From Candidatus Iainarchaeum sp. (GTDB taxonomy: Archaea > Iainarchaeota > Iainarchaeia > Iainarchaeales > CSSED10-239): a stretch of DNA of 32,000 bases. Where the stretch lies: positions 25,585-57,584 of the forward strand of contig JAQVTI010000004.1 of the NCBI GenBank assembly GCA_028700115.1, in the 5' to 3' direction. Position numbers and translations under genes: made by a program. Positions 4,651 to 31,151 of this stretch are shown here, one piece after another (position 1 is the stretch's first letter; every line of letters begins with the position of its first letter). The notes beneath the pieces are model-generated. The model was not told where the DNA came from and did no database searches. It saw only the letters and a list, made by a program, of their open reading frames with translations.

Positions 4651-4767
4651 TTTTTTTTATTTTTAATAATTATTTTTAATAAGTTTAATTATAAACAAAA
4701 AATAGATATACTTTAAAAATTTAATGATTAATCATATAATATATTTAATTTAAAAATATATTTTAAT

Positions 4768-8447: not shown

Positions 8448-8475
8448 AATATTTATTTAAATTTATATAAATTAA

Positions 8476-9649: not shown

Positions 9650-9997
9650 ATGATTTATAAAATTGAAAAAAACAAAATTATTTTTAAAAAAATTAAACTC
9701 GCATTAAATCTTGGACAAATGAGAGGCTTAATGTTTTACCCAAGATCTAAATTTAATTTTGCATTAATTTTTGATAGAAGTTATGAAGACAAAATTAATT
9801 CTTCTCTTCATATGTTTTTTGTATTTTTTCCAATTGATGTTTTATTTTTAAATTCTAATAAAGAAATAGTTGATATTAAATTTAATTTTAGACCTTTTAG
9901 ATTTTATATTCCTAAAGAAAAAGCAAGATATGTTATTGAACTTCCTTGTTTAAAAAAAAATAAGCAATTAAAAATTAAACAAAAAGTTAATTGGTGA
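9650..9997 (+). CDS. DUF192 family protein
   Basis: MRGLMFYPR...LHMFFVFFPIDVLFLNSNKEIVDI...ARYVIELP matches the DUF192 pattern (GLM, Mxxxxx[PI]xD[IV]xF, YVLE). Confidence 0.6.
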   Translation: MIYKIEKNKIIFKKIKLALNLGQMRGLMFYPRSKFNFALIFDRSYEDKINSSLHMFFVFFPIDVLFLNSNKEIVDIKFNFRPFRFYIPKEKARYVIELPCLKKNKQLKIKQKVNW

Positions 9998-10114: not shown

Positions 10115-13100
10115 ATGATATATAATTTTAATAAAAAAATATCAATATCCCCATTAATTGCAGTAATTTTAATAATTTTAGTTGCATCAGTTTTAACTGG
10201 TGCAATTTTATCTTGGTCTAAATCCTCTATTAAAAATTCACTTTCAGATTCTTCTCAAATTTCTAATCAAAGTTTAAATATTTTAGAATGTAAGGATATT
10301 TATCTAAAAGTAGAGTCATTTACATATTATTCTGATTTAAATTATTTTAATTTACTTGTAACAAACACATCTAGTTATAAATTACAAAACCCACAAATAA
10401 CTATTTTAGGGATTGATAGTTTGGGAGAAGATATTAGACTTACAGGTAATTTTAATTCATCTTTAGATAAAGGAGAAACTAAAGTTTTTTCTACAAACTC
10501 AGTTGATTTTTATTTTTCTTTTCAAACACATGAAGTTTCTGATCTAAATTCAGATAATATTTCAGAAATTACATTTGTTTTTCAAACATGCCCTACAAAT
10601 ATTTTATATTTTAAAGATTGGGATATTATAGGTGCGATTGTAAGTGGTGAAACAACTCCAGTTGCTTTATTTGTTTTAGGTTTACATTATCTTTTTAATG
10701 AAGGAAGTGGAACTATTGTTAATGATTTATCTGATAATTCTTTAGATGGAGATTTAAATAGTGGTTTTTGGCAAACAAATGAAGTTGATATTAATTTTTT
10801 AAAATTAGATAATAGTTATAGGGATTCTTTAATAGTTGATGCAAATTTAAATGGTCTAGAAGATGATTCTGGATATAGTTATACTTTTACAAATTCAGGA
10901 TCTGTTGCTTCAATTAACCAAAATGGAGAGGCTATGGCTAGAGATTTTGATGGGGTTAGTGATTATTTAATAATTAATTCTCCAATTAAAGAAGATAAAT
11001 ATCCATTAACAGTTTCATTTTGGATAAATGCAGATTCATGGACTACAAATTATTATGCAGCAGGAGATTTATATTATTCTTGGCTTATAAATAAAAGGGA
11101 TAATGGTACAGATAGATGTTGGCAGTTTATGTTGTCTGATGGATATCCAAGAGTTGATATGTTTAATGATGCAGGAGATGGAATTGATGGAGATTTACAA
11201 TCTAATCAAATTATAACTTTAGAAGAATGGGTGCATATTCTTTTAACAACTGGAGGTCAAACAGGAGATTCTGCAAAAATATATCAAGATGGTGAATTAG
11301 TTTCTGAAGTAACTTTAACAGGAGATAGGCATTTAAGTTCAAGAGAAGTTGTAATTGGTGCTGCTGGTTGGTCTTTTGATTTATTTAATTTTGATGGAGA
11401 TATTTCTGATGTTAAGATTTGGAATAAAGAGCTTAGTGAAAGTGAAGTTAAAAGTGTGTATAATGAACAAAAATCAGATTATGTTACTTCAAATGATTCT
11501 AATAGTTTAGATTTGTCTGATGGGTTTACAATAAATGCATGGGTTAATACAAACAATTTAGATGAACAAACAATTGCTTCAAAAGAAAGTTTTAATACAA
11601 GTTTGTCTTCTGCAGATTTTGAAACATTTGATTTACAAACAATAAGTTCTAGTTATACTGGTTATTTTGATGAATATTTCGATGGGAGATATGTTTATTT
11701 TTTACCTTATCATAATGGATCTGTATATCATGATAAATTTTTTAGATATGATACTACAAAAGATTTTATTTCTTCTTCAAGTTATGAATTTTTTGATTTA
11801 AGTACAGTTAATTCAAAATGTACTGGATTTACAGGAATTTCTTCTGATGGTGATTATTTATATTTAAGTACCTATTCAGGAAGTATTAATGGATGTTTTT
11901 TAAAATATGATTTAAATTCTTCTTTTACATCTTCATCTAGTTATGAATTTATGGATTTAACTACTTTAGATTCTAGTTATAAAGGTTTATTTAGTAGTTT
12001 ATTTGATGGAAGATATGTTTATATGTTAGTATATAATAATGGTAGTTATACTGGTAAGATCATAAGATATGATACTTTATCTGATTTTACATCTTCATCT
12101 AGTTATATTGTTTTTGATTTATCTACAATTAATTCTTTGTATAAAGGATATGCTTCAATGATTTTTGATAATAGATATATTTATTTTATACCTTTTCATA
12201 ATGGAGTTAGACAGGGTAATTTTTTAAGGTATGATACATATGAATCTTTTACAGATTCATCAAGTTATGAATATTTTAATTTAGAAACTATAAATTCTAA
12301 TTATAAAGGATTTATTGGAGGTGTTTTTGATGGAACTTATGTTTATCTTGTGCCTTATACAAATGGTGATTATTTTTCAAGTGTTGTTAGATATGATACT
12401 TCTTTAGATTTTGATAATTCTAAAAGTTATTCTGTATTTGAATTAACTAATTTAAATTCAAATTATAAAGGATATAGAAGTGCTGTTTTTGATGGGAGAT
12501 ATGTTTATTTTGTGCCTCATAATAATGGATCCTATCATGGAAATTTAATAAAATATGATATTTCTAAAGATTTTTTAGAAAATTCTAGTTATTCTGTATT
12601 TGATACTTCTAGTTTAAATTCTGGTTTTAAAGGTTTTTTTGGTGGGCTTTATGATGGTAAATATTTATATTTGCAAGGTTATAGTGATCGATCTACTGGA
12701 ATTGTTGGAAGATATGATACTAGAGAAAATAATAATTTTAATTTTAAAATAAATTCATCTTCTCAAGATGGTATTAGTCAATCTAAACAAGGAATTAAAT
12801 TTAATTTAGATACAAATGAAGGTTATTATCAATTGTTTGATAATAATTATACTGAAACTGGTTGGCATATGTATTCTGCAAGTTATGATAATAATTTAAT
12901 GAAAATATATTATGATGGTAATCTTTCAAAAAGTAAACAAGTAAGTGGAGCTATAACTAGTACCATTTTAGATGATTTAATAATTGGAAAAACAAATACT
13001 GGTTTTTATGGACTTGATGGAAATATTTCTGATTTTAAAATATATGAAGAAGCTTTATCTGATGAAAATATTTCTGATTTATATGATCAAAATATAAATG

Positions 13101-13765
13101 ATTATCCTTCTAGTCCTTTTGGTTCACATCCAACTTTAGAAGAAGATTTAGTTTCTTATTATTCATTTGATGGAAACGCAGAAGATTCAAAAGGAACAAA
13201 TGATGGAATTTCTAATAGTGTTAATTATTCAACTATGAATGGAATAATAAATAGTGGTGCTGAATTTAATTCTAACAATGATAGTTATATTCAATATTCT
13301 TCAATAATAACTCCTAAAGGTGAAAAAAGTATTTCTATTTGGTTAAAAACTTCTCAAACTAGTTGGTGTAGTATTTTTAAAAATAATAGTGATGGTACTC
13401 AAAGTTATGGTGTTTCAATATATGGTTCTGGACATGTTGAACTTTCTCAAGCATCTTCAATTAAAGTTTTAGAAATTTCTCCTGTAGGTGATTTAAGAGA
13501 TGGAAATTGGCATCATTTAGTGTTTACTTGGGATGGAACTACTAATTCAGATACAGTTAAATTATATATTGATGGAATTTTAAATAATCAAAATACTGCA
13601 AATAATACTGAAACAGTAACTCCTTCATATAATTTAATTATAGGTAGATATACTAATGTTTATGATTATGATGGAGATATAGATGAAGTTGGTATTTGGG
13701 AAAGAGCTTTAACTCAAAAAGAAGTAATGGATATTTACAATCTTGGAAATGGGCTTTCTAGATAA
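10115..13765 (+). CDS. modular type IV pilin-like surface protein: class III signal peptide and pilin head, three LamG-like domains, 7 x ~54-aa repeat block
   Basis: N-terminus NKKIS/ISPLIAVILIILVASVLTGAILSW (archaeal Pilin_N type). Three LamG-type endings: FDGDISDVKIWNKELSESEV, LDGNISDFKIYEEALSDENI and YDGDIDEVGIWERALTQKEV. Confidence 0.75.
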   Translation: MIYNFNKKISISPLIAVILIILVASVLTGAILSWSKSSIKNSLSDSSQISNQSLNILECKDIYLKVESFTYYSDLNYFNLLVTNTSSYKLQNPQITILGIDSLGEDIRLTGNFNSSLDKGETKVFSTNSVDFYFSFQTHEVSDLNSDNISEITFVFQTCPTNILYFKDWDIIGAIVSGETTPVALFVLGLHYLFNEGSGTIVNDLSDNSLDGDLNSGFWQTNEVDINFLKLDNSYRDSLIVDANLNGLEDDSGYSYTFTNSGSVASINQNGEAMARDFDGVSDYLIINSPIKEDKYPLTVSFWINADSWTTNYYAAGDLYYSWLINKRDNGTDRCWQFMLSDGYPRVDMFNDAGDGIDGDLQSNQIITLEEWVHILLTTGGQTGDSAKIYQDGELVSEVTLTGDRHLSSREVVIGAAGWSFDLFNFDGDISDVKIWNKELSESEVKSVYNEQKSDYVTSNDSNSLDLSDGFTINAWVNTNNLDEQTIASKESFNTSLSSADFETFDLQTISSSYTGYFDEYFDGRYVYFLPYHNGSVYHDKFFRYDTTKDFISSSSYEFFDLSTVNSKCTGFTGISSDGDYLYLSTYSGSINGCFLKYDLNSSFTSSSSYEFMDLTTLDSSYKGLFSSLFDGRYVYMLVYNNGSYTGKIIRYDTLSDFTSSSSYIVFDLSTINSLYKGYASMIFDNRYIYFIPFHNGVRQGNFLRYDTYESFTDSSSYEYFNLETINSNYKGFIGGVFDGTYVYLVPYTNGDYFSSVVRYDTSLDFDNSKSYSVFELTNLNSNYKGYRSAVFDGRYVYFVPHNNGSYHGNLIKYDISKDFLENSSYSVFDTSSLNSGFKGFFGGLYDGKYLYLQGYSDRSTGIVGRYDTRENNNFNFKINSSSQDGISQSKQGIKFNLDTNEGYYQLFDNNYTETGWHMYSASYDNNLMKIYYDGNLSKSKQVSGAITSTILDDLIIGKTNTGFYGLDGNISDFKIYEEALSDENISDLYDQNINDYPSSPFGSHPTLEEDLVSYYSFDGNAEDSKGTNDGISNSVNYSTMNGIINSGAEFNSNNDSYIQYSSIITPKGEKSISIWLKTSQTSWCSIFKNNSDGTQSYGVSIYGSGHVELSQASSIKVLEISPVGDLRDGNWHHLVFTWDGTTNSDTVKLYIDGILNNQNTANNTETVTPSYNLIIGRYTNVYDYDGDIDEVGIWERALTQKEVMDIYNLGNGLSR
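11618..12727 (+). repeat. seven tandem ~54-aa (~162-nt) coding repeats, possibly a beta-propeller
   Basis: Units begin at aa 502, 557, 610, 664, 718, 772 and 826. Consensus: Y.xFDLxTxNSxYKGxxxxxFDGRYVYxVPxxNGxxxGxxxRYDTxxDFxxSSS. Confidence 0.8.
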
Positions 13766-13772
13766 AAATATA

Positions 13773-13782
13773 TTTTATAAAT
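13773..13782 (+). promoter_or_regulatory. TATA-box-like element ttttataaat upstream of pilin gene 2
   Basis: It lies inside a ~85-nt block (13766-13850) that is nearly identical to 15042-15125. Its centre is about 27 nt before the ATG at 13806, consistent with a leaderless or very short-leader mRNA. Confidence 0.5.
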
Positions 13783-13805
13783 ATTTTCTTTTATCTTAAT
13801 AGTAT

Positions 13806-15041
13806 ATGTTATATAAAGTTAAATCAAAAAAAGCAATTTCTCCTGTAATTGCAATTATTTTTATAGTTCTAATTGCAGCGATTTTAACTGGAGCTATGCT
13901 TTCTTGGTCTAAATCTTCAACTAAAGATAAATTAGAAATAACTTCTAAAGAATCAAGACAAATAGTTGATGATTTAACTTGTAGTGATATAGAATATTCA
14001 ATTGAAGATGTTGTAATTGATACTAGAACAAAAGATTTTAATTTTTTATTTTTTAATAATTCAACAATTAAACTTTATAACCCAAAGATAACTATTTTAG
14101 GAAAAAGTTTATCTGGTGAAGACTTAAGATTTGTTGGAGAGTTTAATTCTTCTATAGATAAAATGGAAAGTAAAACTTTTTCAACAACTTCTGATTTTAA
14201 TTATTCTTATCAATCTCATGAAACTGATCAATTAGATGTTGATTCAATTGAAGAAATTACAATTGTTTTTAATACATGTCCAAATAAAATATTTTTAATA
14301 GATACATATGAAACAATTACTTCTGCAGAACCATCTCCTTATTTTAGCGGGCATTCAACTTTAGATAATAATATAGTTGCATATTATTCATTTGATGGAA
14401 ATGCAGAAGATCAAGTTGGAACTTGTGATGGAACAGTTAGTGGTGCATTAAATAGTTCTAGTTATGGTTTAATTAATCAAGGTTATAGATTTGATGGGGA
14501 TTGGGATTATATTAATTTAGGAAAAAATAATGCAATTGAATCTTTATTTGATCCAGGAAATAGTTTTTCTATATCTTTTTGGATGTATTCTTTAGAGAAT
14601 GTAACTTCTAACTGGAGATGGGTTTTAAGTAAAGCATATACTTCTCATACACCTCCATATTATCAATTTGATTTTAAATTAAATAGTATTGGATCTATGT
14701 CTTCTGTACTTTATAATGATTCTGTATCTATTTATTTAGGAGATTCTGATTCTAGTTATGAAGAATATAATAATTGGAATTATGTTGTAATTACAGTTGA
14801 TTTAACTAATAATATATATAATATATATATTAATAATAATTTATTAGTAACAGATACTACTCCTGAAGGAACTTATACAAATTATGATACTGAACTTGCA
14901 ATTGGTAGAAATATTAAATTTAATAATAATTCAGTTTATGATTTTTATGGTTATATTGACGAAGTTGGAATTTGGGAAAGAGAATTAACCCAAGATGAAG
15001 TTTCTGCATTATATAACTCTGGAAATGGTCTTTCTAGATAA
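13806..15041 (+). CDS. modular type IV pilin-like surface protein: class III signal peptide and pilin head plus one LamG-like domain
   Basis: KSKKA/ISPVIAIIFIVLIAAILTGAMLSW; the head module is paralogous to genes 1 and 3. LamG features are YYSFDGNAED, FSISFWMY and YGYIDEVGIWERELTQDEV. Confidence 0.75.
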   Translation: MLYKVKSKKAISPVIAIIFIVLIAAILTGAMLSWSKSSTKDKLEITSKESRQIVDDLTCSDIEYSIEDVVIDTRTKDFNFLFFNNSTIKLYNPKITILGKSLSGEDLRFVGEFNSSIDKMESKTFSTTSDFNYSYQSHETDQLDVDSIEEITIVFNTCPNKIFLIDTYETITSAEPSPYFSGHSTLDNNIVAYYSFDGNAEDQVGTCDGTVSGALNSSSYGLINQGYRFDGDWDYINLGKNNAIESLFDPGNSFSISFWMYSLENVTSNWRWVLSKAYTSHTPPYYQFDFKLNSIGSMSSVLYNDSVSIYLGDSDSSYEEYNNWNYVVITVDLTNNIYNIYINNNLLVTDTTPEGTYTNYDTELAIGRNIKFNNNSVYDFYGYIDEVGIWERELTQDEVSALYNSGNGLSR

Positions 15042-15048
15042 TGATATA

Positions 15049-15058
15049 TTTTATAAAT
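15049..15058 (+). promoter_or_regulatory. TATA-box-like element ttttataaat upstream of pilin gene 3
   Basis: Same conserved cassette as at 13773-13782. Its centre is about 26 nt before the ATG at 15080. Confidence 0.5.
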
Positions 15059-15079
15059 GTTTTCTTTTATTTTATTATT

Positions 15080-17731
15080 ATGTTATGTAAAGTTAAATCA
15101 AAAAAAGCAATTTCTCCAATAATAGCAGTAATTTTAATTATTTTAATTGCATCTGTTTTAACTGGAGCTATTTTATCTTGGTCTAAATCTTCAACTAAAG
15201 AAAATATGGCTTTAACCTCTAAGGAGTCAAGAGAAATTGTAAGTGATTTAACTTGTAATGATTTAGTTTATTATATTGATTCTATAGATTTTAGATATGC
15301 AACAAATGATTTTACTTTTTTAATAGTAAATAATTCTTCACAAAAACTTTTTTTTCCAAAAATAACTGTTTTTGGAAAAACTTTATCTGGGGAAGATATT
15401 AAATGGGTTGGAGAGTTTGAAGATTATATAGATAAAGCACAAACTAAATCTTTTTTAACATCTTCTGAGAATTTCACATATACTTCTCAAACACATACAA
15501 CAAATATAGATGAAAATAGTTTAAGTGTAAATCTTGTTTTTCAAACATGTCCTAATAAAATTATAACAATTAATAGTTATGATGTTATTTATCCTGTTTG
15601 TGGAGATTCTTTATGTGAAGGAGATGAAACTTCTGAAAATTGTTATTCAGATTGTGGAAGTTGTGGGGATAGTGTTTGTTCTGCTCCTGATGAAAATTTA
15701 GATACTTGTGCAATTGATTGTGCGGTTTGTGGAGATGGCATTTGTTCTTCAAGTGTAGAAAACACAGCTTCATGTTTACAAGATTGTCCTCCTAATTATT
15801 TTTCTTCAACTTGGAATACAGCAACTACTGGATATGGTTCAAGTGCTTCTAATCAAATAAATCTTCCTTTAGTTTCAAGTGGAACTTATGATTTTAATGT
15901 AAATTGGGGAGATGGTTCAGTTTCACAGATTACTTCATATAATGATCCTGATAAAACACATACTTATGCTTCTTCAGGGATTTATGATGTGAATATGTGG
16001 GGAACTATTGAAGGTATTTCTTTTGAATATTCTAGTGATAGGTATAAATTAACTGAAATTTCTCAATGGGGAGATTTTAGTCCTAAAAATAGTAAATTTA
16101 GTTATTGTGAAAATTTAGATATTACAGCAACTGATATTTTGGATTTAACTGGAGTTACAAGATTAATTTGTTTTTTTTGTAATTGTTCAAGTTTAACTCA
16201 AATTCCAAATATAGACCAATGGGATGTTTCAAATATTACAGATATGTCTAGTTTGTTTGCTGGTACTTCTTTTAATCAAGATCTTTCTTCTTGGGATGTT
16301 TCAAATGTTACTGATATGTATGGGATGTTTTCAAATACAAATAATTTTAATCAACCTTTAAATAGCTGGGATGTTTCTAGTGTAACTGATATGGGATCTT
16401 TATTTTTAAATGCAGATGCTTTTAATCAACCTTTAAATAACTGGGATGTTTCTAATGTTACTAATATTAATAATATGTTTAATAATGCAGATGCTTTTAA
16501 TCAACCTTTAAATAATTGGGATACATCAAATGTAACTACACTATATGGAACTTTTGCTGAAACTTTAGCATTTAACCAATCTTTAAATGATTGGAATACA
16601 TCTAAAGTAACAACTTTTGAAAAAATGTTTTATGGAAGTGAATCTTTTAATGGTGCAGTTAATAATTGGGATACATCTAATGTGACTACCATGAATGGTA
16701 TGTTTCAAAATGCTTATGTTTTTAATCAACCTTTAAATGATTGGAATGTTTCAAATGTAACTAATATGGGTTATATGTTTAAAGAAGCATATGCTTTTAA
16801 TCAAGATTTAGATCAATGGGATATTTCTAGTTTAAGTAATATTTTTCAAATGTTTTCAGGAGCAATTAATTTTGATGGAAATATTTCAACATGGGATGTT
16901 TCAAATATAACTTATCTTGGTGATTTATTTAATTGTAATATATATAGTCAACATCTTGGTACTTTTATTACAGGTTGTCATTTTAATCAAGATATTTCTT
17001 CTTGGGATGTTTCAAATGTTACTAGTATGTCTGGTTTGTTTGAAAATCAAGTAGATTTTAATCAACCTTTAAATGATTGGGATGTTTCAAATGTAACTAA
17101 TTTGAGTGGTATGTTTAATGGTGCTAAATCTTTTAATCAACCTTTAAATGATTGGAATACTTCTAAAGTAACTAATATTAGACATATTTTTTATAATGCA
17201 AATTCATTTAATCAAGATTTAAATAATTGGGATACTTCAAATGTTTCAGATATGTCTTATGTGTTTATGATGGCTAATTTATTTAATGGAGATGTATCTA
17301 CATGGGATACTTCAAATGTAACTTCAATGGATTGGATGTTTTATTCTGCTGATTCATTTAATCAACCTTTAAATAATTGGGATACTTCTAAAGTTACTGA
17401 AATGGATTGGATGTTTTATTCTGCAGATAATTTTAATCAACCTTTAAATAACTGGGATGTTTCAAATGTAACTGATATGAGTTTTATGTTTAATGATGCT
17501 AAATCTTTTAATCAAGATATAGGTGATTGGAATACTTCTAAGGTTACTAATATGAATAGTATGTTTTATTCTTTAGATTATTTTAATCAAGATCTTTCTT
17601 CTTGGGATATTTCTAAAGTGACTTCTAGTTTTACTGCCTTTTTTTATGGAACTAGTGTGTCAGCAGCAAACTGTCAAGCAATGGCAACTGCTTGGGGAAA
17701 AACTTGTGCAGATTTAGGATGTACTTGTTAG
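15080..17731 (+). CDS. modular type IV pilin-like surface protein: class III signal peptide and pilin head, 3 CGDxxC Cys-rich repeats, DUF285/BspA-like repeat array
   Basis: MLCKVKSKKA/ISPIIAVILIILIASVLTGAILSW. The ORF opens at 15041, but the conserved promoter and 5' cassette shared with gene 2 place the start at 15080. Downstream are a VNWGDGS...HTY segment and then repeated FNQPLNNWDVSNVTxMxxMF units. Confidence 0.75.
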   Translation: MLCKVKSKKAISPIIAVILIILIASVLTGAILSWSKSSTKENMALTSKESREIVSDLTCNDLVYYIDSIDFRYATNDFTFLIVNNSSQKLFFPKITVFGKTLSGEDIKWVGEFEDYIDKAQTKSFLTSSENFTYTSQTHTTNIDENSLSVNLVFQTCPNKIITINSYDVIYPVCGDSLCEGDETSENCYSDCGSCGDSVCSAPDENLDTCAIDCAVCGDGICSSSVENTASCLQDCPPNYFSSTWNTATTGYGSSASNQINLPLVSSGTYDFNVNWGDGSVSQITSYNDPDKTHTYASSGIYDVNMWGTIEGISFEYSSDRYKLTEISQWGDFSPKNSKFSYCENLDITATDILDLTGVTRLICFFCNCSSLTQIPNIDQWDVSNITDMSSLFAGTSFNQDLSSWDVSNVTDMYGMFSNTNNFNQPLNSWDVSSVTDMGSLFLNADAFNQPLNNWDVSNVTNINNMFNNADAFNQPLNNWDTSNVTTLYGTFAETLAFNQSLNDWNTSKVTTFEKMFYGSESFNGAVNNWDTSNVTTMNGMFQNAYVFNQPLNDWNVSNVTNMGYMFKEAYAFNQDLDQWDISSLSNIFQMFSGAINFDGNISTWDVSNITYLGDLFNCNIYSQHLGTFITGCHFNQDISSWDVSNVTSMSGLFENQVDFNQPLNDWDVSNVTNLSGMFNGAKSFNQPLNDWNTSKVTNIRHIFYNANSFNQDLNNWDTSNVSDMSYVFMMANLFNGDVSTWDTSNVTSMDWMFYSADSFNQPLNNWDTSKVTEMDWMFYSADNFNQPLNNWDVSNVTDMSFMFNDAKSFNQDIGDWNTSKVTNMNSMFYSLDYFNQDLSSWDISKVTSSFTAFFYGTSVSAANCQAMATAWGKTCADLGCTC
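15599..15793 (+). repeat. three tandem ~21-22-aa Cys-rich coding repeats (CGDxxC-x7-8-C-x3-C)
   Basis: CGDSLCEGDETSENCYSDC, CGDSVCSAPDENLDTCAIDC and CGDGICSSSVENTASCLQDC. Confidence 0.8.
16201..17645 (+). repeat. about 19 tandem ~25-aa (~75-nt) DUF285-type coding repeats (bacterial surface protein 26-residue repeat)
   Basis: 19 occurrences of W[DN][VTI]S[NKS] spaced 24-25 aa apart, with one longer unit. Most carry an N-[VI]-T sequon. Confidence 0.85.
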
Positions 17732-25799: not shown

Positions 25800-27548
25800 A
25801 TGTATCTAAAATTAAAAAAAAAAGATATAAATGAAATTCCAAAACAAATTTTTACTAATTGTCCATATGGTTTTTCAAAAAAAGATATAAAAAAAGTTTT
25901 TGCATGTAAAAACTGTAAAGATGCACCTTGTCTTCATGCTTGTAAAAAAGGAGCAATTTATTTTTCTTCAAAAGGAATAATTTCAATCGATCCTGATAAA
26001 TGTGATGGTTGTGGGGAATGTGTAAAAGCATGTAAAGAAAATGCAATTATTTTAAAAAATAATAAAGCTTATAAATGTGATTTGTGTTCACAAATTTCAT
26101 TTGCAATGTATTGTTATAAAAATTATCCTGAATTTTTAGAACTTGTAGATAATCAATCTATAGATGATTCTTTAGAAATAATTAATAAAAATTTAGGATT
26201 TAAGATTATTGAACATAAAGATATTTTAAGGAATTTATCTAAAAATGTATATGAAAAAAAAGATTCTTCAAAAATTTATTTATTTAAACAAAATATATTA
26301 AGTGTAGATGAAATTGAAATAATTAATTCTGTTTTAGATAATTACAAAGAAAATAATAAAGATTTAAAAGATATTAGTGCAATTAAAATTAAAGAAGATT
26401 TAGAAAAAGAATTAATTGATTTTTGTTTTATAAATTCTTTAGAATTAGATTCTGATCAATTTAATTATATTCTTGAAACTATTTTTAATATTTTATATAA
26501 ATATGGACCTTTATCAGAAGCATTAGATGATTATGATCTTGAAGAAATTGTAATTTTAGATATTAATAAAGAAATATATGTTTATCATAAATATTATGGT
26601 TGGTTAATTAGTAATTTAGTTTATCTTTCAAAAGATCTTTTAAGAGAACTTATTAATAAATTATCTTGGTCTTCAAATAAATTTATAACTTTAAAAAATC
26701 CAATATTAAATACATACTTAGAAGATAATTCAAGAATGAATGCTGTAATTTCTCCTATTACAAATAATGTTAGTATAACTATAAGAAAATTTTCTGAAAA
26801 ACCATTTACTTTAAAAGATTTAATTTCTACAAAAACTATTTCTTTAGAAGCACTTGCTTTTTTAAGATTATGTTTTTTAACAGATTCAAATATTCTTGTT
26901 GTTGGGAATACAGGTTCTGGAAAAACAACTACATTAAATACACTTTTAAATTTTATTCCTTCTACAGAAAGATTTATTGTTGTTGAAGATGTTAGAGAGA
27001 TTAATTTTAAGGCTACTCATGTTGTAAATCTTTTGGTAAATGAAGATTTGTCAGTTACTCTTTCTGATTTAGTAATTAATACCTTAAGAATGAGACCAGA
27101 TAGAGTAATAATTGGAGAAATTAGATCTAAGACAGAAGTTATTTCTTTTATGGAATCAATACTTTGTGGTCAAGCAAAAGGAACATATTCTACATTTCAT
27201 TCAAATTCGTCATTAGAAAGTATTAGGCGAATAATGTCTTATGGTATTTTAGAATCTGATCTTTTATCTTTAGATATAATTATTAATCAAAAAAGATTTA
27301 ATAAATATACACAAGAAGGATATAAAGATATTAGGAAAATAATAGAAATTTGTGAAGTTGTTGATAAAAATGGAAAAATTTTTTTAAATATTTTATATAA
27401 ATATAATATTTTTAAAGATGTTTTAGAAAAAATAAATAATCCTATAAAATTAATGAATAAATTTAAATTTTCATTTGGGATTAAAAATATTAAAGAATAT
27501 GATAAATTATTTAAAGATAGTTGTAAGTTTATAGAAAATGAACTATAA
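25800..27548 (+). CDS. FlaI/VirB11/GspE-family secretion ATPase with an N-terminal Cys-rich 4Fe-4S ferredoxin-like domain
   Basis: Cys pattern C36-x2-C39-x4-C44-x3-C48 and C68-x2-C71-x2-C74-x3-C78, plus C93-x2-C96. Walker A is VVGNTGSGKTTTLN (26904-26930 encodes GNTGSGKTT), Walker B is RPDRVIIGEIR, and the His box is GTYSTFHSNS. Confidence 0.8.
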   Translation: MYLKLKKKDINEIPKQIFTNCPYGFSKKDIKKVFACKNCKDAPCLHACKKGAIYFSSKGIISIDPDKCDGCGECVKACKENAIILKNNKAYKCDLCSQISFAMYCYKNYPEFLELVDNQSIDDSLEIINKNLGFKIIEHKDILRNLSKNVYEKKDSSKIYLFKQNILSVDEIEIINSVLDNYKENNKDLKDISAIKIKEDLEKELIDFCFINSLELDSDQFNYILETIFNILYKYGPLSEALDDYDLEEIVILDINKEIYVYHKYYGWLISNLVYLSKDLLRELINKLSWSSNKFITLKNPILNTYLEDNSRMNAVISPITNNVSITIRKFSEKPFTLKDLISTKTISLEALAFLRLCFLTDSNILVVGNTGSGKTTTLNTLLNFIPSTERFIVVEDVREINFKATHVVNLLVNEDLSVTLSDLVINTLRMRPDRVIIGEIRSKTEVISFMESILCGQAKGTYSTFHSNSSLESIRRIMSYGILESDLLSLDIIINQKRFNKYTQEGYKDIRKIIEICEVVDKNGKIFLNILYKYNIFKDVLEKINNPIKLMNKFKFSFGIKNIKEYDKLFKDSCKFIENEL

Positions 27549-27646: not shown

Positions 27647-28798
27647 ATGAAATTAGAATTAATTGATTATATTAAATCAGAACGAAAGAAAAAAGTTGAA
27701 GATAAATATATTAAACAAGCTTTATATAATTATGGTTTTACGAAAAAAGAAATTGAAGATTCATTTAAATATATAAAAATAGAAGAAAGTAAATTATTAT
27801 TTAATTTAAAAAGTTCTTTTTCTAAAAATAACAATATAAAAAAAGATAATAATTCTAATTTAAAAGATAAAAATGATACTAAAATACAATTAGATAATAA
27901 TATTCAAAGTAATTTAAAAAAATCTAAATCTAAAAATCTAAAAAGAGAGAAAGATATTAAAATAGATAATAATTATTTAAAATTTAATAAAGATTCTTAT
28001 AGTATAAAATTTTTTTTAGTTTTATTGATTATTATAATTTTTGGGGTTTTATTATATTTTATTTTTATAAAAGAATTATTTCTATTTAATTCTTTAGAAA
28101 AAAATAGTAATTTTGAAATAGAATATATAAATTCATTTAATGATAATGTTTTTGTTTCTGGAAATATTAAAATAAGATCTTTAATAAATAGTTATGATTT
28201 TAATTATTCTGAAAAAATTATTTTAAAAAATATTTCTGAAACAGAATTTAAAAAATATTTTAAAGAATATTTAGAATTAAATATTTATTCTCAACCAATT
28301 ATTATTACAAAATATAATTCGGATTATAGGGATATTTTTAATATTTCAAAAAAGGATGAAAATATAGATTTTTTTAATAAAACTTATGAATTTAATGAAA
28401 TATTATATTCTTTAAAAGAAAAAGGTTTTGAAAAAGAAATTGAATTCATTTTAGATTCTAAAAATTTATTAAATAATTATCATTATTTATTAGAAATAGA
28501 ATATAATAATGTTATTTATAAAATTATTGAAATTATATTAAATAAAAATAATACTCTTTATATTAAAACTTATGATTTAAGAGGATATACAAAAAGTAAA
28601 GAATTAAATAGTTTTCAAGTTGTGGATTATGTTTTAAAAAATACAAATATATTAGATAGTTTGTTATTTAATATTACAAATATTGGAGAAGATTTTTGTG
28701 TAGATTTAGATGAAATTACATGTAAATCTAAAATTGGTTGTTTTCCAGAATATGAATTTGATATTTATGGAAATATGACTTATATTAATTGTAGATAA
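27647..28798 (+). CDS. hypothetical single-pass membrane protein (cytoplasmic Lys-rich N-terminus, extracytoplasmic C-terminal domain with 4 Cys at the end)
   Basis: One TM segment (FFLVLLIIIIFGVLLYFIFI) at about aa 124-146. No class III signal motif. It lies between the ATPase and the platform genes. Confidence 0.45.
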   Translation: MKLELIDYIKSERKKKVEDKYIKQALYNYGFTKKEIEDSFKYIKIEESKLLFNLKSSFSKNNNIKKDNNSNLKDKNDTKIQLDNNIQSNLKKSKSKNLKREKDIKIDNNYLKFNKDSYSIKFFLVLLIIIIFGVLLYFIFIKELFLFNSLEKNSNFEIEYINSFNDNVFVSGNIKIRSLINSYDFNYSEKIILKNISETEFKKYFKEYLELNIYSQPIIITKYNSDYRDIFNISKKDENIDFFNKTYEFNEILYSLKEKGFEKEIEFILDSKNLLNNYHYLLEIEYNNVIYKIIEIILNKNNTLYIKTYDLRGYTKSKELNSFQVVDYVLKNTNILDSLLFNITNIGEDFCVDLDEITCKSKIGCFPEYEFDIYGNMTYINCR

Positions 28799-28840: not shown

Positions 28841-29578
28841 ATGTTAGATTTTTCTTTTTTAAAAAAGCAAAAAAAAATAATTTTTCAATTTATAATTTCT
28901 TTTTTTATAATCTTTTTTATGTATCTTTGTTTTTCAATTTATTATGATTTTTTTAATATAAATTTTATAATATATATATTTTTTGCAACATTTTTAATGT
29001 TTTTTTCAATAAAATATTTTATAAAAAAAATAAAAGAACATAGTTATAATCAAAAAATAATTTCAGAAATTCCATTTTTTTTGATAAATATTTCTAATGA
29101 TTTAGAAAGAAATTTATCTTTAAAAACATGTCTTGAAAATAGAAGTGATAATACTATTATTGGTAAAAAAATTAGAACTGCATTAAATCTAGTTAAAAAT
29201 TATGGATTTACTTTAAATCAAGCATTATTAAAAGTTTCAAAAGAAAGTAAAGATTTAAGTGTTGTTTTTTATCAATTAGAAGATGTTTTTTCACTTGGGG
29301 GTAAAGATAGAGTTAGTTCTTTAAGAATTTTATGTGATTCTTTTATTGAAAAGCAAATGAATAATTTTAGAAGTTCTTCTTCTAAAATTAATTTTTTATC
29401 ATTAATATTTATTGTTTGTTCTGCAATTGTTCCTGCAATATTTTTGATTTTTACACTTGTAGGAAGTAATTTTTTAGCAATGTCTTTTAGTGCTTTTACA
29501 ATTATATTTTTTACTGTAATTATTTTTCCATTAATAGATATGTTTATTCTTTTGATTATGAAATCAAAATTTGTTTAG
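28841..29578 (+). CDS. half-size FlaJ/TadB/TadC-like platform membrane protein (locus 2)
   Basis: Two N-terminal TM helices, a cytoplasmic helical domain (IPFFLINISNDLERNLSLKTCLE...LNQALLKVS) and C-terminal TM helices. Confidence 0.5.
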   Translation: MLDFSFLKKQKKIIFQFIISFFIIFFMYLCFSIYYDFFNINFIIYIFFATFLMFFSIKYFIKKIKEHSYNQKIISEIPFFLINISNDLERNLSLKTCLENRSDNTIIGKKIRTALNLVKNYGFTLNQALLKVSKESKDLSVVFYQLEDVFSLGGKDRVSSLRILCDSFIEKQMNNFRSSSSKINFLSLIFIVCSAIVPAIFLIFTLVGSNFLAMSFSAFTIIFFTVIIFPLIDMFILLIMKSKFV

Positions 29579-29694: not shown

Positions 29695-30513
29695 ATGATT
29701 TATTTTAAAGAACTAATTTTATTTATTTTATTTTCTCTTATTTTATTTTCTATTTTATTTTTTTTAAATATAAATATATTTTTAATATTAATAATTTTAT
29801 TTTGTTTATTTTTTGCATATATTATTTTAAAAGATATTTTTATAAAATATTTAAATGTTTTGAAAACAACTAAATTAGAAGAAGAATTAATTTTAGAATT
29901 ATTAAGGCTTTCATCATTACCTAAAGTAAATGATTTAAAGTTTATTATAGAAAAGTTAAGTAAATCAGATACTAAAATTTTGTCAAAAGAATTTATTTTA
30001 ATTTCTTCTAAAATTAAAAAAGGGCATTTAGCATCTTCTTCTTTAGATTTAATTAAGAATAAATATCATTCTAGATTTATTTCTAATTTTATAGATTTAT
30101 TAGAATTAATTGTAAAATCAGGAACTGTATCTATAAAAGATTTTAGAAATTTAGCAAATAATTTTTTAAAATCAAAAGAAATTATAAATGAACGAAAATC
30201 TATTCTCTTAATGCAAAAATATACTATTATTTTTGCAGGAGGAATAATTGTCCCAGCAATATTAGGTATTGTTGTTTCTTTAGTTTCAAAACTTTCTTCT
30301 TCTTTAGATATTACATTATTAGGGCTTAGTTCTAATTTAAATTTATATAATGTAAGTTATTATTGTTCAATTATATATATTATAGAATATATTATTATTT
30401 CTTCAATATATTTATCTTTTTTAGAAGATAATTCTAAAAAATTTGTAGTATATCTAGTTTTATTTTTACCAGTAAGTATTTTAATCTTTTTTACTCTTAA
30501 ATATTTAATTTAA
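29695..30513 (+). CDS. half-size FlaJ/TadB/TadC-like platform membrane protein (locus 2)
   Basis: Same topology as the other platform-like genes: TM helices, a ~120-aa cytoplasmic domain, then TM helices. Confidence 0.5.
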   Translation: MIYFKELILFILFSLILFSILFFLNINIFLILIILFCLFFAYIILKDIFIKYLNVLKTTKLEEELILELLRLSSLPKVNDLKFIIEKLSKSDTKILSKEFILISSKIKKGHLASSSLDLIKNKYHSRFISNFIDLLELIVKSGTVSIKDFRNLANNFLKSKEIINERKSILLMQKYTIIFAGGIIVPAILGIVVSLVSKLSSSLDITLLGLSSNLNLYNVSYYCSIIYIIEYIIISSIYLSFLEDNSKKFVVYLVLFLPVSILIFFTLKYLI

Positions 30514-30551: not shown

Positions 30552-31151
30552 ATGATTGAAGAAATATTACTCTTTTTTGATTTTTTTTTATCAAATATAA
30601 ATTATTTTAGTATTTTTTTTTTAATGTTAATTGAAAGTTCATTTATCCCATTTCCATCAGAATTAATTATGATACCTGCAGGATATCTTGCATTTAAAGG
30701 GAATTTAAATATATTTTTAGTAATTTTTTTTGGGATATTAGGATCTATTATTGGGGCTTTAATAAATTATTTTATTGGTAAATTTTTAGGGATCCATTTT
30801 ATTTTAAAAAAGAAAAAATTTTTATTTATAAATTTTAAAACTTTAAATAAATCTGAAATTTTTTTTAGAAAATATGGGAACATTACAACTTTTATAGGTA
30901 GATTAATACCTGCTGTTAGGCAATATATTTCTGTTCCTGCTGGTATTTTTAAAATGAATATTTCTAAATTTATATTGTATACTTTTTTTGGTTCTTTTAT
31001 ATGGAATGTATTTTTAGTTATTTTAGGTTTTTTTATAGGAGAAAGTATTTCTGCATCTATTATAAATATTTATAATCTTGTAATTTTAATTGTTTTAGGA
31101 ATTGTAATATTATTTGTATTTATTTTTTATATTTTTAAAAATAAAAGATAG
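30552..31151 (+). CDS. DedA/VTT (SNARE-associated) family membrane protein
   Basis: LIESSFIPFPSELIMIPAGYLA and FIGRLIPAVRQYISVPAGI are the two DedA signature segments. Confidence 0.75.
   Translation: MIEEILLFFDFFLSNINYFSIFFLMLIESSFIPFPSELIMIPAGYLAFKGNLNIFLVIFFGILGSIIGALINYFIGKFLGIHFILKKKKFLFINFKTLNKSEIFFRKYGNITTFIGRLIPAVRQYISVPAGIFKMNISKFILYTFFGSFIWNVFLVILGFFIGESISASIINIYNLVILIVLGIVILFVFIFYIFKNKR

What the first reader, a model, noticed from the sequence alone, without database searches (positions are those of the whole stretch)
25905..26087. Ferredoxin-like poly-Cys domain fused to the N-terminus of the motif-intact pilus ATPase
The first 105 residues contain 11 Cys. They are arranged C-x2-C-x4-C-x3-C (aa 36-48), C-x2-C-x2-C-x3-C (aa 68-78, the canonical 4Fe-4S motif CDGCGECVKAC) and C-x2-C (aa 93-96). 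A full FlaI/VirB11-type ATPase with intact Walker A, Walker B and His box follows. I do not know of a characterised secretion or pilus ATPase carrying an Fe-S domain. If real, it would couple pilus assembly to redox or oxygen status, or use the clusters structurally.
Basis: partly seen in the sequence, partly recalled or inferred. Interest (0 to 1): 0.8.

Follow-up and report, generated by a model that had tools for sequence, protein, structure and literature searches.

The report
Iron-sulfur domain fused to pilus ATPase
A tiny symbiotic-type (DPANN) archaeon encodes a pilus-assembly motor ATPase whose front end is a ferredoxin-like module predicted to hold three iron-sulfur clusters; about 30 related archaeal lineages share this fusion, no paper I found describes it, and it hints that pilus building depends on the cell's redox, oxygen or iron state.

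Summary
ORF 25800-27548 (+, 582 aa) is a FlaI/GspE2/TadA-type ATPase with intact motifs. Its first ~112 residues carry 12 cysteines (not 11), all invariant across 40 relatives.

The domain is not a simple ferredoxin. It is the four-cluster HycB/PsrB/NarH-type module missing exactly the four ligands of one terminal cluster, so it predicts 3x[4Fe-4S]. Relatives carry 16, 12 or 8 Cys, and every loss removes one complete ligand set. That argues for real clusters rather than disulfides or zinc.

The fusion occurs in about 30 clusters at 50% identity out of 1.84 billion representatives. All named members are DPANN (Iainarchaeota, Micrarchaeota, Undinarchaeales). Two TadC-like genes always follow. 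No redox enzyme is conserved nearby, and domain-less sister ATPases exist.

Best reading: an accessory Fe-S input module that makes pilus assembly depend on cluster integrity or redox state. A purely structural role is nearly as likely; an electron wire is less likely. I found no publication describing it, though annotation pipelines already label it. Function is untested. It is a new variant of a known kind, of moderate to high interest.

The parts
25800..27548 (+). Whole gene: Fe-S domain plus FlaI/GspE2/TadA-type pilus assembly ATPase (582 aa)
   Evidence: ORF. It is 100% identical to the NCBI MAG protein 'ATPase, T2SS/T4P/T4SS family [Candidatus ainarchaeum sp.]'. The AF2 model has mean pLDDT 90.7.
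25800..26135 (+). N-terminal four-cluster-type ferredoxin-like domain (aa 1-112), predicted to bind 3x[4Fe-4S]
   Evidence: Fer4_6 and Fer4 pass their gathering scores. phmmer against PDB gives 9mqx_E 8.6e-12 and PsrB 2e-9. The AF2 N-domain model has pLDDT 93.2, and Foldseek matches WOR5-beta, AOR Fe-S subunits, PsrB, HycB3/4, FdnH and NarH. All 12 Cys are invariant in 40 homologues.
25860..25862 (+). C21 (followed by P22): the only surviving Cys of group I. Predicted fourth ligand of the FS2-equivalent cluster, together with C93, C96 and C105.
   Evidence: Alignments A1 and A3 place it on group-I Cys4 'CP' of the 16-Cys relatives. NarH C26 ligates FS2 together with C244, C247 and C259.
25905..25943 (+). 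Cys group II: C36, C39, C44 (FS3-equivalent, completed by C78) and C48 (fourth ligand of the FS4-equivalent)
   Evidence: phmmer aligns query 35-96 to NarH 183-247. NarH ligand table.
26001..26033 (+). Cys group III, CDGCGECVKAC: C68, C71, C74 (FS4-equivalent, completed by C48) and C78 (fourth ligand of the FS3-equivalent)
   Evidence: Fer4 and Fer4_6 hits at aa 60-83.
26076..26126 (+). Cys group IV: K92-C93-D-L-C96 ... C105 (FS2-equivalent). Y109 replaces the fourth Cys, which in 16-Cys relatives completes the lost FS1-equivalent cluster.
   Evidence: Window CYKNYP against relatives' CxxxCP. KCDLC is the most conserved motif of the domain, and this is the only cluster kept in every variant type.
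26136..26684 (+). Linker with the conserved LG[WF] motif (G133), followed by the FlaI-like N-terminal domain (aa 113-295)
   Evidence: NCBIfam FlaI model aligns from aa 176. Fold matches to afGspE 2OAP and FlaI 4IHQ. G133 is nearly invariant.
26685..27545 (+). ATPase core (aa 296-582): Walker A 26904-26930, Asp box 26970-26990, Walker B 27084-27125, His box 27192-27203
   Evidence: T2SSE 1.3e-35; invariant motif residues; motif coordinates.
27647..28798 (+). 383-aa gene of unknown function between the ATPase and the platform genes, with no family hit. It is absent at this position in the syntenic relatives L085 and L086.
28841..29578 (+). First TadC/FlaJ-like membrane platform protein (245 aa). 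It has no Pfam hit of its own; the call rests on position.
   Evidence: It is hydrophobic. The gene at the equivalent position in relatives hits T2SSF.
29695..30513 (+). Second TadC/T2SSF-like membrane platform protein (272 aa)
   Evidence: T2SSF 6.4e-5, slightly below the gathering score. An ATPase followed by two T2SSF genes is the conserved operon core in L001, L085, L087, L088, L091, L093 and L095, and partly in L086 where one of the pair has no Pfam hit.

Best explanation
Identity (high confidence, about 0.9). The gene encodes the assembly ATPase of a Tad/FlaI-like archaeal type IV pilus system. Its N-terminus is a genuine iron-sulfur domain of the four-cluster HycB/PsrB/NarH-beta type. 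It has lost one terminal cluster and should bind three [4Fe-4S] clusters:
- C36, C39, C44 + C78
- C68, C71, C74 + C48
- C93, C96, C105 + C21

Mechanism (inferred, about 0.4). The Fe-S domain is an accessory N-terminal input module, not part of the motor. When its clusters are intact, and possibly depending on their oxidation state set by the cell's ferredoxin pool, the domain is folded and permits productive hexamer or platform engagement. Oxidative cluster damage, iron or sulfur limitation, or a change in redox state would alter or unfold it and so down-regulate pilus assembly. In a strictly fermentative, ferredoxin-based DPANN cell, this would tie surface-filament production to anoxia and energy status.

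Shown: the domain's identity, the ligand pattern, its conservation, the operon context and its dispensability in sister proteins. Inferred: cluster occupancy, and any effect on ATPase activity.
For: Domain identity:
- Fer4 and Fer4_6 pass their gathering scores.
- NCBIfam aligns the region to AegA, YgfT, NrfC, DmsB and DsrO.
- phmmer and profile searches against PDB hit 9mqx_E, PsrB, HycB3/4, FdnH, NarH and MvhB.
- The confident AF2 N-domain model (pLDDT 93.2) matches the same Fe-S subunits by Foldseek, with TMq up to 0.71.

Real clusters:
- All 12 Cys are invariant in 40 homologues at 34-78% identity.
- Against the published NarH ligand map, every family variant has lost whole ligand sets only.
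- Window type (12 Cys): lost I-1,2,3 + IV-4 = FS1.
- P0011 and P0014 (8 Cys): additionally lost II-1,2,3 + III-4 = FS3.
- P0112-P0116 (12 Cys): lost FS4.
- In the regex count, 48 sequences lack both FS1 features and 32 have both. The 9 mixed rows were mis-parses or N-terminal truncations on inspection, so none is truly discordant.

Pilus ATPase:
- T2SSE 1.3e-35 with intact motifs.
- Fold matches afGspE, FlaI and CpaF.
- Two TadC/T2SSF genes follow directly in every locus examined.

Accessory or regulatory role:
- Domain-less sister ATPases are interspersed in the core tree.
- Three of them were checked and have no upstream Fe-S remnant.
- Cluster number varies between 2 and 4, and the 8-Cys type keeps two non-adjacent clusters, so a continuous wire is not required.
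- No redox enzyme is conserved nearby.
- The host lineages are ferredoxin-dependent fermenters without an electron transport chain (PMC8561730).

From established knowledge: N-terminal extensions of T4P/T2SS ATPases are the usual site of regulatory or partner-binding modules, for example the MshE N-domain that binds c-di-GMP and the GspE N1 domain that binds GspL.
Against: - There is no biochemical evidence that clusters are bound or that they affect the ATPase.
- Known Fe-S sensors such as FNR and NreB use one cluster, not a three- or four-cluster chain. Retaining 12-16 ligands over deep divergence looks more like a wire or a structural scaffold.
- The only well-characterised ferredoxin-domain-plus-mechanochemical-ATPase fusion, ABCE1, uses its clusters structurally.
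- The NJ tree is a quick distance tree, so the number of independent losses is approximate.
Confidence: 0.42

Rival explanations
1. Purely structural Fe-S module, as in ABCE1. The clusters are redox-inert and only rigidify a docking domain that binds the TadC-like platform, an accessory protein or the neighbouring protomer. There is no sensing function beyond needing Fe-S biogenesis.
For: - The 8-Cys variant keeps two non-adjacent clusters, so electron flow along the chain is not required.
- Cluster number varies and either end of the chain can be lost.
- No redox partner is conserved nearby.
- There is a precedent in ABCE1/Rli1, whose N-terminal di-cluster ferredoxin-like domain acts mechanically (established knowledge; papers listed).
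- One population encodes the domain as a separate ORF overlapping the ATPase gene, which fits a stably bound subunit.
Against: - A structural domain essential for docking would not be expected to be lost repeatedly while the same two-TadC operon persists.
- Any solvent-exposed [4Fe-4S] fold in an anaerobe is sensitive to oxygen and iron in practice, so the line between this and the sensor model is thin.
Confidence: 0.3
2. Electron-transfer wire. The three- or four-cluster chain moves electrons between the cytoplasmic ferredoxin pool and an acceptor or donor at the pilus machine. This could be a redox step in pilin or adhesin maturation, or electron exchange with a host through the filament.
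For: - The domain is homologous in sequence and fold to dedicated electron-transfer subunits: PsrB, NarH, FdnH, HycB, WOR5-beta and MvhB.
- In the window type the three retained clusters (FS2-FS3-FS4 equivalents) form a contiguous chain.
- The cluster that faces the membrane subunit in the respiratory enzymes (FS4) is kept in most members.
Against: - No cofactor-bearing partner (haem, flavin, molybdopterin or hydrogenase) is conserved in any of the loci examined.
- The TadC-like platform proteins have no known redox cofactors.
- The 8-Cys lineage breaks the chain.
- Either terminal cluster can be lost in different lineages.
- The whole domain is dispensable in sister proteins.
Confidence: 0.13
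3. The Cys-rich N-terminus binds zinc or forms disulfides rather than Fe-S clusters. This is the interpretation Makarova et al. 2016 gave for other Cys-rich archaeal T4P ATPase N-termini.
For: Makarova et al. proposed disulfide bridges for the C-rich N-terminal regions of subclade 4F (MA1299-like) and 4D (PAE2119-like) ATPases. Bacterial GspE and PilB carry a tetracysteine zinc site (established knowledge).
Against: - The canonical CxxCxxCxxxC(P) spacing, Fer4 HMM hits above threshold, and profile and fold matches exclusively to [4Fe-4S] proteins.
- Losses across the family remove exactly the inter-motif ligand sets that the ferredoxin cross-ligation scheme predicts. Neither a disulfide nor a zinc-ribbon model predicts that.
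- The domain is cytoplasmic in an anaerobe.
Confidence: 0.03
4. Decaying relic. The domain is an evolutionary leftover with no current role in this organism.
For: One cluster is already lost in this clade and two in a nested sub-lineage. Some relatives have lost the whole domain. The genome is extremely reduced and AT-rich, at 20.2% GC.
Against: All 12 remaining Cys are strictly conserved across the roughly 44-leaf clade despite 20% GC and divergence down to about 48% identity, with the Cys codons intact. The domain models with pLDDT 93.
Confidence: 0.05

Closest known systems
Archaeal secretion-superfamily ATPases FlaI/ArlI (PDB 4IHQ, 4II7) and Archaeoglobus GspE2 (PDB 2OAP); bacterial TadA/CpaF (PDB 8RJF)
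   Same: The ATPase body is the same: an N-terminal domain plus a RecA-like C-terminal domain with Walker A, Asp box, Walker B and His box. These are the top fold matches (Foldseek E 1e-30 to 1e-34, TM 0.65-0.76 normalised to the target). The gene is operonic with TadC/FlaJ-like platform genes.
   Different: None of these carries an Fe-S domain. The window protein has about 112 extra N-terminal residues with 12 Cys. It scores far below the NCBIfam FlaI equivalog cut-off (157.6 vs 550) and has no archaellum genes nearby, so it is not an archaellum motor.
Four-cluster ferredoxin-like electron-transfer subunits: PsrB/NrfC (2VPW_B), NarH (1Q16_B), FdnH (1KQF_B), HycB3/4 of HDCR (7QV7), WOR5 small subunit (6X6U_B), AOR Fe-S subunit (9MQX_E/G)
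   Same: The arrangement of Cys groups and the cross-ligation scheme are the same. There is sequence similarity (E 8.6e-12 to 1e-6) and fold similarity (TMq 0.45-0.71).
   Different: Those proteins are subunits of oxidoreductases and sit beside catalytic or membrane redox subunits. Here the domain is fused to a non-redox motor ATPase, no such partner is encoded nearby, and one terminal cluster (the FS1 equivalent) is missing.
ABCE1 / Rli1 (ribosome recycling factor)
   Same: The concept is the same: an N-terminal ferredoxin-like multi-[4Fe-4S] domain fused to a mechanochemical, non-redox ATPase. This is an analogy drawn from established knowledge; relevant papers are listed.
   Different: The ATPase class is different (twin ABC vs the hexameric secretion superfamily). 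ABCE1 has two clusters rather than three or four. Its domain is universally conserved and essential, whereas here it is lineage-restricted and repeatedly lost. There is no evidence of common origin for the fusion.
Cys-rich N-terminal regions of archaeal T4P ATPases noted by Makarova, Koonin and Albers 2016 (subclade 4F MA1299-like, arCOG01818; subclade 4D PAE2119-like, arCOG05558)
   Same: A Cys-rich extension at the N-terminus of an archaeal type IV pilus ATPase, and loci with two TadC genes.
   Different: The authors interpreted the cysteines as disulfide-forming and stated that they are not conserved in the halobacterial and nanoarchaeal orthologues. The exhaustive profile search returned no methanogen members among its top 150 hits. 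Whether MA1299's region is Fer4-like could not be tested here.

Membership tests
Secretion-superfamily (T2SSE / FlaI / GspE2 / TadA) ATPase | Pfam T2SSE match above the gathering score | tested here: met
   123.2 bits against a cut-off of 24.9, aa 296-501.
Secretion-superfamily (T2SSE / FlaI / GspE2 / TadA) ATPase | Walker A, Asp box, Walker B (catalytic Glu) and His box all intact | tested here: met
   GNTGSGKTT 369-377, RFIVVED 391-397, LRMRPDRVIIGEIR 429-442, TFHS 465-468. The key residues are invariant in 40 homologues.
Secretion-superfamily (T2SSE / FlaI / GspE2 / TadA) ATPase | Two-domain fold (N-terminal domain plus RecA-like C-terminal domain) matching solved members | tested here: met
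   The AF2 model (pLDDT 90.7) matches 2OAP, 4IHQ/4II7 and 8RJF at Foldseek E 1e-30 to 1e-34.
Secretion-superfamily (T2SSE / FlaI / GspE2 / TadA) ATPase | Genomic linkage to a polytopic platform protein (TadB/C, FlaJ, PilC; Pfam T2SSF) | tested here: met
   Two TadC-like genes lie downstream in the window (28841-29578; 29695-30513, T2SSF 6.4e-5) and in all related loci examined.
Secretion-superfamily (T2SSE / FlaI / GspE2 / TadA) ATPase | Hexameric, ATP-hydrolysing, and required for filament assembly | not testable with these tools
   Needs biochemistry or genetics.
Archaellum motor ATPase FlaI/ArlI (NCBIfam NF058587 equivalog) | Score above the equivalog cut-off, and archaellum operon context (FlaB/ArlB, FlaH, FlaG/F, FlaJ) | tested here: not met
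   157.6 bits against a cut-off of 550. No archaellin, FlaH or FlaF/G was found in the window.
VirB11 / TrbB conjugative T4SS ATPase | Score above the TIGR02788 or TIGR02782 cut-offs, and T4SS context | tested here: not met
   158.5 vs 249.95 and 130.5 vs 304.55. There are no T4SS genes nearby.
Four-cluster ferredoxin-like domain (HycB / PsrB / NrfC / DmsB / NarH-beta type; Pfam Fer4_11 and relatives) | Fer4-type HMM match above the gathering score | tested here: met
   Fer4_6 scores 31.8 against 25 and Fer4 29.5 against 21.1. Fer4_11 scores 25.6 against 26.2, marginally below for the window protein, but it is recorded for many relatives.
Four-cluster ferredoxin-like domain (HycB / PsrB / NrfC / DmsB / NarH-beta type; Pfam Fer4_11 and relatives) | Four Cys groups (16 Cys) ligating four clusters by the cross-ligation scheme | tested here: not met
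   The window protein has 12 Cys. Groups II and III are complete, group I is reduced to Cys4, and group IV lacks Cys4 (Y109). That gives three complete ligand sets with the FS1 equivalent absent. The 16-Cys form is present in more distant family members. The protein is therefore a truncated derivative, not a canonical member.
Four-cluster ferredoxin-like domain (HycB / PsrB / NrfC / DmsB / NarH-beta type; Pfam Fer4_11 and relatives) | Fold match to solved members | tested here: met
   The N-domain model (pLDDT 93.2) matches 6X6U_B at TMq 0.71 and 9MQX_E/G at 0.60, and also 2VPW_B, 7QV7_A/B and 1KQF_B. All have probability 1.00.
Four-cluster ferredoxin-like domain (HycB / PsrB / NrfC / DmsB / NarH-beta type; Pfam Fer4_11 and relatives) | Functions as the electron-transfer subunit of an oxidoreductase complex, with catalytic or membrane redox partners encoded alongside | tested here: not met
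   No molybdopterin, hydrogenase, haem or flavin partner is conserved in the window or in the related loci examined.
Four-cluster ferredoxin-like domain (HycB / PsrB / NrfC / DmsB / NarH-beta type; Pfam Fer4_11 and relatives) | Actual [4Fe-4S] occupancy | not testable with these tools
   Needs anaerobic purification followed by UV-vis, EPR and Fe/S analysis. Model coordinates were not exposed, so S-S geometry could not be measured.
Makarova et al. 2016 subclade 4F 'MA1299-like' C-rich T4P ATPases (arCOG01818) | Orthology to MA1299, with a homologous C-rich N-terminal region | tested here: inconclusive
   The MA1299 sequence could not be retrieved. The exhaustive profile search (aa 1-300) listed no methanogen full-length members among its best 150, and all named hits were DPANN. 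The paper states that the cysteines are not conserved in nanoarchaeal orthologues.

The most novel reading that the evidence does not exclude
The Fe-S chain is a working electron conduit attached to a pilus motor. Either ATP hydrolysis or hexamer state is gated by electron occupancy, giving a redox-gated nanomachine. Or the machine passes electrons between the ferredoxin pool of an electron-transport-chain-less DPANN cell and its filament or host, which would be a previously unknown route for symbiont-host redox exchange.
Probability: 0.1. Interest if true: 0.9.

Novelty: new variant of a known kind. Interest (0 to 1): 0.62.

Why it matters
Type IV pilus, archaellum and secretion ATPases are intensively studied, and their N-terminal extensions are where regulation enters: c-di-GMP, partner proteins or lipids. 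I know of no characterised case with an iron-sulfur input, and I found none in the held literature.

DPANN archaea depend on surface filaments to attach to hosts, and they are ferredoxin-based fermenters without respiratory chains. A multi-cluster Fe-S module on what appears to be the only motif-intact pilus ATPase in this 32-kb window would therefore give a direct, testable link between cellular redox, oxygen or iron status and host attachment.

The family also offers a natural series with four, three, two or no clusters, plus one possible split-gene form. That series is well suited to structure-function work. The result also corrects the default 'disulfide' reading that has been given to Cys-rich N-termini of archaeal pilus ATPases, at least for this family.

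Tried and rejected
1. The first genome-contig scan failed because the alignment's first sequence was a 160-aa truncation. None of the 14 archaeal loci I inspected had a Cys-rich N-terminus, so that route gave no taxonomic spread.
2. Model coordinates are not exposed, so I could not measure Cys S-S distances. I substituted residue-level alignment to NarH and PsrB plus a published ligand table.
4. I tested whether domain-less sister ATPases are really split genes with an upstream ferredoxin ORF. I rejected this for P0141, P0157 and P0110, which have no Fe-S ORF or remnant in any forward frame upstream.
5. The split-gene locus L091/L092 looked like independent confirmation but is a single population (1 mismatch in 9 kb). 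The break could be a 1-nt indel in a G-run, so I give it little weight. A homologue search with the 125-aa ORF found only itself.
6. A strict regex search for class III signal peptides next to the Fer4-ATPase found none. Pilin-like N-termini are present only on the three large proteins at 10115-17731.
7. Six literature searches with different wordings found no description of an Fe-S-bearing pilus or secretion ATPase. The library covers open-access papers only.
8. I considered a gene-fusion or assembly artefact and rejected it. The ORF is continuous, M1 and the MYLK start are conserved, and the fusion is seen in NCBI, JGI, ENA and Logan assemblies.
Full report
THE OBSERVATION

The window is extremely AT-rich (20.2% GC) and archaeal, with ribosomal L10e and an archaeal-type A24 prepilin peptidase. 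ORF 25800-27548 (+) encodes 582 aa. It is identical to an NCBI MAG protein annotated 'ATPase, T2SS/T4P/T4SS family [Candidatus ainarchaeum sp.]', a DPANN archaeon.

The count is off by one: the first 105 residues hold 12 Cys (C21, 36, 39, 44, 48, 68, 71, 74, 78, 93, 96, 105). That compares with 5 Cys in the remaining 477 residues and a 0.87% background in the other window ORFs (binomial p = 1.7e-10).

Pfam gives T2SSE at 123 bits, and Fer4_6 and Fer4 above their gathering scores. Fer4_11 is marginally below. Walker A, Asp box, Walker B and His box are intact and invariant across homologues.

WHAT THE N-TERMINAL DOMAIN IS

NCBIfam aligns aa 14-124 to the Fe-S beta subunits and domains of AegA, YgfT, NrfC, DmsB, DsrO, FdhB and TtrB.

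Sequence search of solved structures with aa 1-123 hits the following:
- an AOR-complex Fe-S subunit (9MQX_E, 8.6e-12)
- Thermus PsrB (2VPW_B, 2e-9)
- HycB4 and FdnH
- NarH, with query 35-96 aligned to NarH 183-247

A family profile reaches MvhB polyferredoxin at 1.5e-34. An AlphaFold model of aa 1-122 built on 31 family sequences is confident (pLDDT 93.2, pTM 0.84). Its Foldseek matches are exclusively such subunits: WOR5 small subunit at TMq 0.71, 9MQX_E/G at 0.60, and PsrB, HycB3/4, FdnH, EbdB and NarH.

More distant family members carry the full 16-Cys layout:

| Group | Pattern |
|---|---|
| I | CxxCxxCxxxCP |
| II | CxxCx4-6CxxxC |
| III | CxxCxxCxxxCP |
| IV | CxxCx2-8CxxxCP |

The published NarH ligand table (PMC5338063) gives:

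| Cluster | NarH ligands | Cys groups |
|---|---|---|
| FS1 | C16, C19, C22 + C263 | I-1,2,3 + IV-4 |
| FS2 | C244, C247, C259 + C26 | IV-1,2,3 + I-4 |
| FS3 | C184, C187, C192 + C227 | II-1,2,3 + III-4 |
| FS4 | C217, C223 + C196 | III-1,3 + II-4 (3Fe-4S) |

The clusters sit in two domains, FS1:FS2 and FS3:FS4 (PMC8301774). Mapped onto the window protein:

| Equivalent cluster | Window ligands |
|---|---|
| FS3 | C36, C39, C44 + C78 |
| FS4 | C68, C71, C74 + C48 |
| FS2 | C93, C96, C105 + C21 (followed by P22) |
| FS1 | absent: group-I Cys1-3 are missing and group-IV Cys4 is Y109 (CYKNYP vs CxxxCP) |

The prediction is therefore three [4Fe-4S] clusters forming a contiguous FS2-FS3-FS4 chain.

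EVIDENCE THAT THE CYSTEINES ARE REAL CLUSTER LIGANDS

All 12 Cys are invariant in 40 homologues at 34-78% identity. More tellingly, every variant in the family has lost only complete ligand sets, which span different motifs:
- Window type (12 Cys): lost FS1.
- P0011 and P0014 (8 Cys): additionally lost group-II Cys1-3 and group-III Cys4, which is FS3.
- P0112-P0116, from Micrarchaeota (12 Cys): lost group-III Cys1-3 plus one fourth-position Cys, which is FS4.

In my regex count, 48 sequences lack both FS1 features and 32 have both. The 9 mixed rows turned out on inspection to be mis-parses or N-terminally truncated entries, so I count no true discordance. Only the ferredoxin cross-ligation scheme predicts this pattern. 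Disulfide or zinc-ribbon models do not.

The FS2 equivalent (the KCDLC motif plus the group-I 'CP') is the only cluster retained in every type.

THE ATPASE AND ITS LOCUS

The full-length model (pLDDT 90.7) matches archaeal GspE (2OAP), FlaI (4IHQ, 4II7) and TadA/CpaF (8RJF) at E 1e-30 to 1e-34. It scores far below the NCBIfam equivalog cut-offs for FlaI and VirB11, and no archaellum or T4SS genes are nearby. So it is a Tad/FlaI-like pilus assembly ATPase, not an archaellum motor.

Downstream on the same strand lie a 383-aa gene with no family hit, then two TadC/T2SSF-like membrane proteins. In related loci the two TadC-like genes follow the ATPase directly, often with overlapping stop and start codons. 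This holds for L001, L085, L087, L088, L091, L093 and L095, and for L086 where one of the pair has no Pfam hit. L085 and L086 are syntenic with the window: PCC and PRPP synthase upstream, a VTT-domain gene downstream. No redox enzyme is conserved in any neighbourhood.

The window holds a second T4P gene set at 3901-9612: an A24 peptidase, a 943-aa ATPase paralogue and two T2SSF genes. The paralogue has lost Walker A (ITGEDDS--FIIYN in place of GxxGSGKTT) and the LRMRPDR/Walker B region. The Fe-S-fused enzyme is therefore the only motif-intact T4P ATPase in these 32 kb.

DISTRIBUTION

Most of the 120 closest database clusters carry precomputed Fer4 plus T2SSE domains. JGI even names some 'Flp pilus assembly CpaF family ATPase/ferredoxin'.

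I ran an exhaustive HMM search of 1.84 billion 50%-identity representatives with a profile of aa 1-300. It gave 70 hits at E <= 1e-30. About 30 representatives carry both the N-domain and an ATPase core. Named members are Iainarchaeota/Diapherotrites, Micrarchaeota/Micrarchaeia and Undinarchaeales, which are all DPANN.

A neighbour-joining tree of 176 ATPase cores puts the window's 12-Cys type in one clade of about 44 leaves. The 8-Cys type is nested inside it, which fits sequential loss of FS1 and then FS3. Elsewhere, 16-Cys and domain-less ATPases are interspersed as sister pairs. I checked three domain-less sisters. None has an Fe-S ORF or remnant upstream, and each starts just before the conserved LG[WF] linker motif. 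The domain is accessory and has been lost repeatedly.

One population (L091/L092) encodes the 16-Cys domain as a separate 125-aa ORF that overlaps a 425-aa ATPase ORF by 19 nt. A Shine-Dalgarno-like GGAGAGG precedes the second ATG. The two assemblies differ by only 1 nt in 9 kb, and the break could be a 1-nt indel in a G-run. I treat this as suggestive only.

MECHANISM

Shown:
- The domain's identity, ligand pattern and conservation.
- Its fusion to an intact pilus ATPase within a TadC operon.
- Variable cluster number, and dispensability in sister proteins.

Inferred, best reading (about 0.4): the domain is an accessory N-terminal input module whose cluster integrity or oxidation state conditions ATPase function. 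That would couple pilus assembly to anoxia, iron-sulfur supply and the ferredoxin pool. Three points favour this:
- In other T4P/T2SS ATPases the N-terminal position is where regulatory modules sit (established knowledge: MshE-N and GspE-N1).
- The domain has been lost repeatedly.
- The host lineages have a ferredoxin-based fermentative physiology without an electron transport chain (PMC8561730).

Rivals:
- A purely structural role like ABCE1's is nearly as likely (about 0.3). The 8-Cys lineage, which keeps two non-adjacent clusters, supports it.
- A true electron wire is possible (about 0.13). The homology to dedicated wires and the contiguous three-cluster chain favour it. The lack of any conserved redox partner, the broken chain in one lineage and the loss of either end in different lineages count against it.
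- Zinc or disulfide binding (about 0.03) and a decaying relic (about 0.05) are unlikely.

COMPARISON WITH WHAT IS KNOWN, AND NOVELTY

The ATPase body is an ordinary member of the FlaI/GspE2/TadA group. The N-domain is a truncated derivative of the four-cluster beta-subunit family. It fails the canonical 16-Cys feature and the oxidoreductase-partner feature, so I do not file it as a canonical member of that family.

Six literature searches found no paper describing an Fe-S-bearing pilus or secretion ATPase. DPANN genome papers only list 'type IV pili (FlaIJK)'. Makarova, Koonin and Albers 2016 noted Cys-rich N-terminal regions on subclade 4F (MA1299-like) and 4D (PAE2119-like) ATPases. They proposed disulfides and added that the cysteines are not conserved in nanoarchaeal orthologues. 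I could not test whether those regions are homologous to this domain.

The fusion is therefore recurrent and auto-annotated, but apparently undescribed and uncharacterised. I rate it a new variant of a known kind.

VERDICT

Interest is 0.62. A pilus specialist would be surprised by a three- or four-cluster Fe-S module on the assembly ATPase, and the natural series of four, three, two and no clusters makes the question directly testable. Function is unproven, and the architecture is already visible in databases.

Noticed in passing
window 4768-7599 (+): A 943-aa paralogue of the pilus ATPase with degenerate catalytic motifs. The Walker A position reads ITGEDDS--FIIYN instead of GxxGSGKTT, and LRMRPDR has become SERPNY. 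Its only Pfam hit is PilB3_C. It sits in a second T4P gene set with an A24 prepilin peptidase (3901-4650) and two T2SSF genes (7599-8447, 8476-9612). It is probably a pseudo-ATPase, and the Fe-S-fused enzyme may have to power both gene sets.
   Followed up: partly
window 10115-13765, 13806-15041, 15041-17731 (+): Three large tandem proteins (1216, 411 and 896 aa) all begin with K-K-(A)-I-S-P-[LVI]-I-A-[VI]-I plus a hydrophobic stretch ending ILSWSKSS. That is an archaeal class III (type IV pilin-like) signal. They carry Laminin_G_3 or seven DUF285 repeats, so they look like pilin-headed adhesins next to the first T4P gene set.
   Followed up: partly
window 27647-28798 (+): A 383-aa Lys/Asn-rich ORF with one hydrophobic segment and no family hit sits between the ATPase and the TadC-like genes. 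It is present in the NCBI contig L083 but absent at this position in the syntenic relatives L085 and L086, so it appears to be a lineage-specific insertion into the operon.
   Followed up: partly
L091 5001-6637 (and L092): A split form of the fusion. A stand-alone 125-aa 16-Cys ferredoxin ORF overlaps by 19 nt a 425-aa T2SSE ATPase ORF, with the break right after the conserved ILGW motif and a GGAGAGG Shine-Dalgarno-like motif before the second ATG. It is either a genuine two-subunit version or a 1-nt indel in a G-run. Only one population is represented (1 mismatch in 9 kb between the two assemblies).
   Followed up: partly
window 9650-9997 (+); L087 5838-6143; L091 4653-4958; L095 2006-2371: A small DUF192 (COG1430) gene recurs immediately next to DPANN type IV pilus loci, between T4P gene sets or just upstream of the ATPase. 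It may be an unrecognised accessory component.
   Followed up: no
L087, L088, L091, L095 (downstream of the TadC genes): A PAC2 (proteasome assembly chaperone-like) gene follows the ATPase-TadC-TadC module in several 16-Cys and domain-less loci. A Flavin_Reduct gene comes after it in L087 and L091. The window's clade has a VTT-domain membrane protein at that position instead (30552-31151).
   Followed up: no
whole window: Base composition is extreme at 20.2% GC. All 12 ligand cysteines use the TGT codon.
   Followed up: yes
P0200 / P0228 (Micrarchaeota, 715-733 aa) and P0149 (Undinarchaeales, 648-701 aa): These are longer variants of the fusion. They have about 100 extra residues between the Fe-S domain and the ATPase core, or before the Fe-S domain (in P0149 the N-domain match begins at residue 88). 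In P0200 and P0228 my Walker A regex did not match. I did not examine them further.
   Followed up: no
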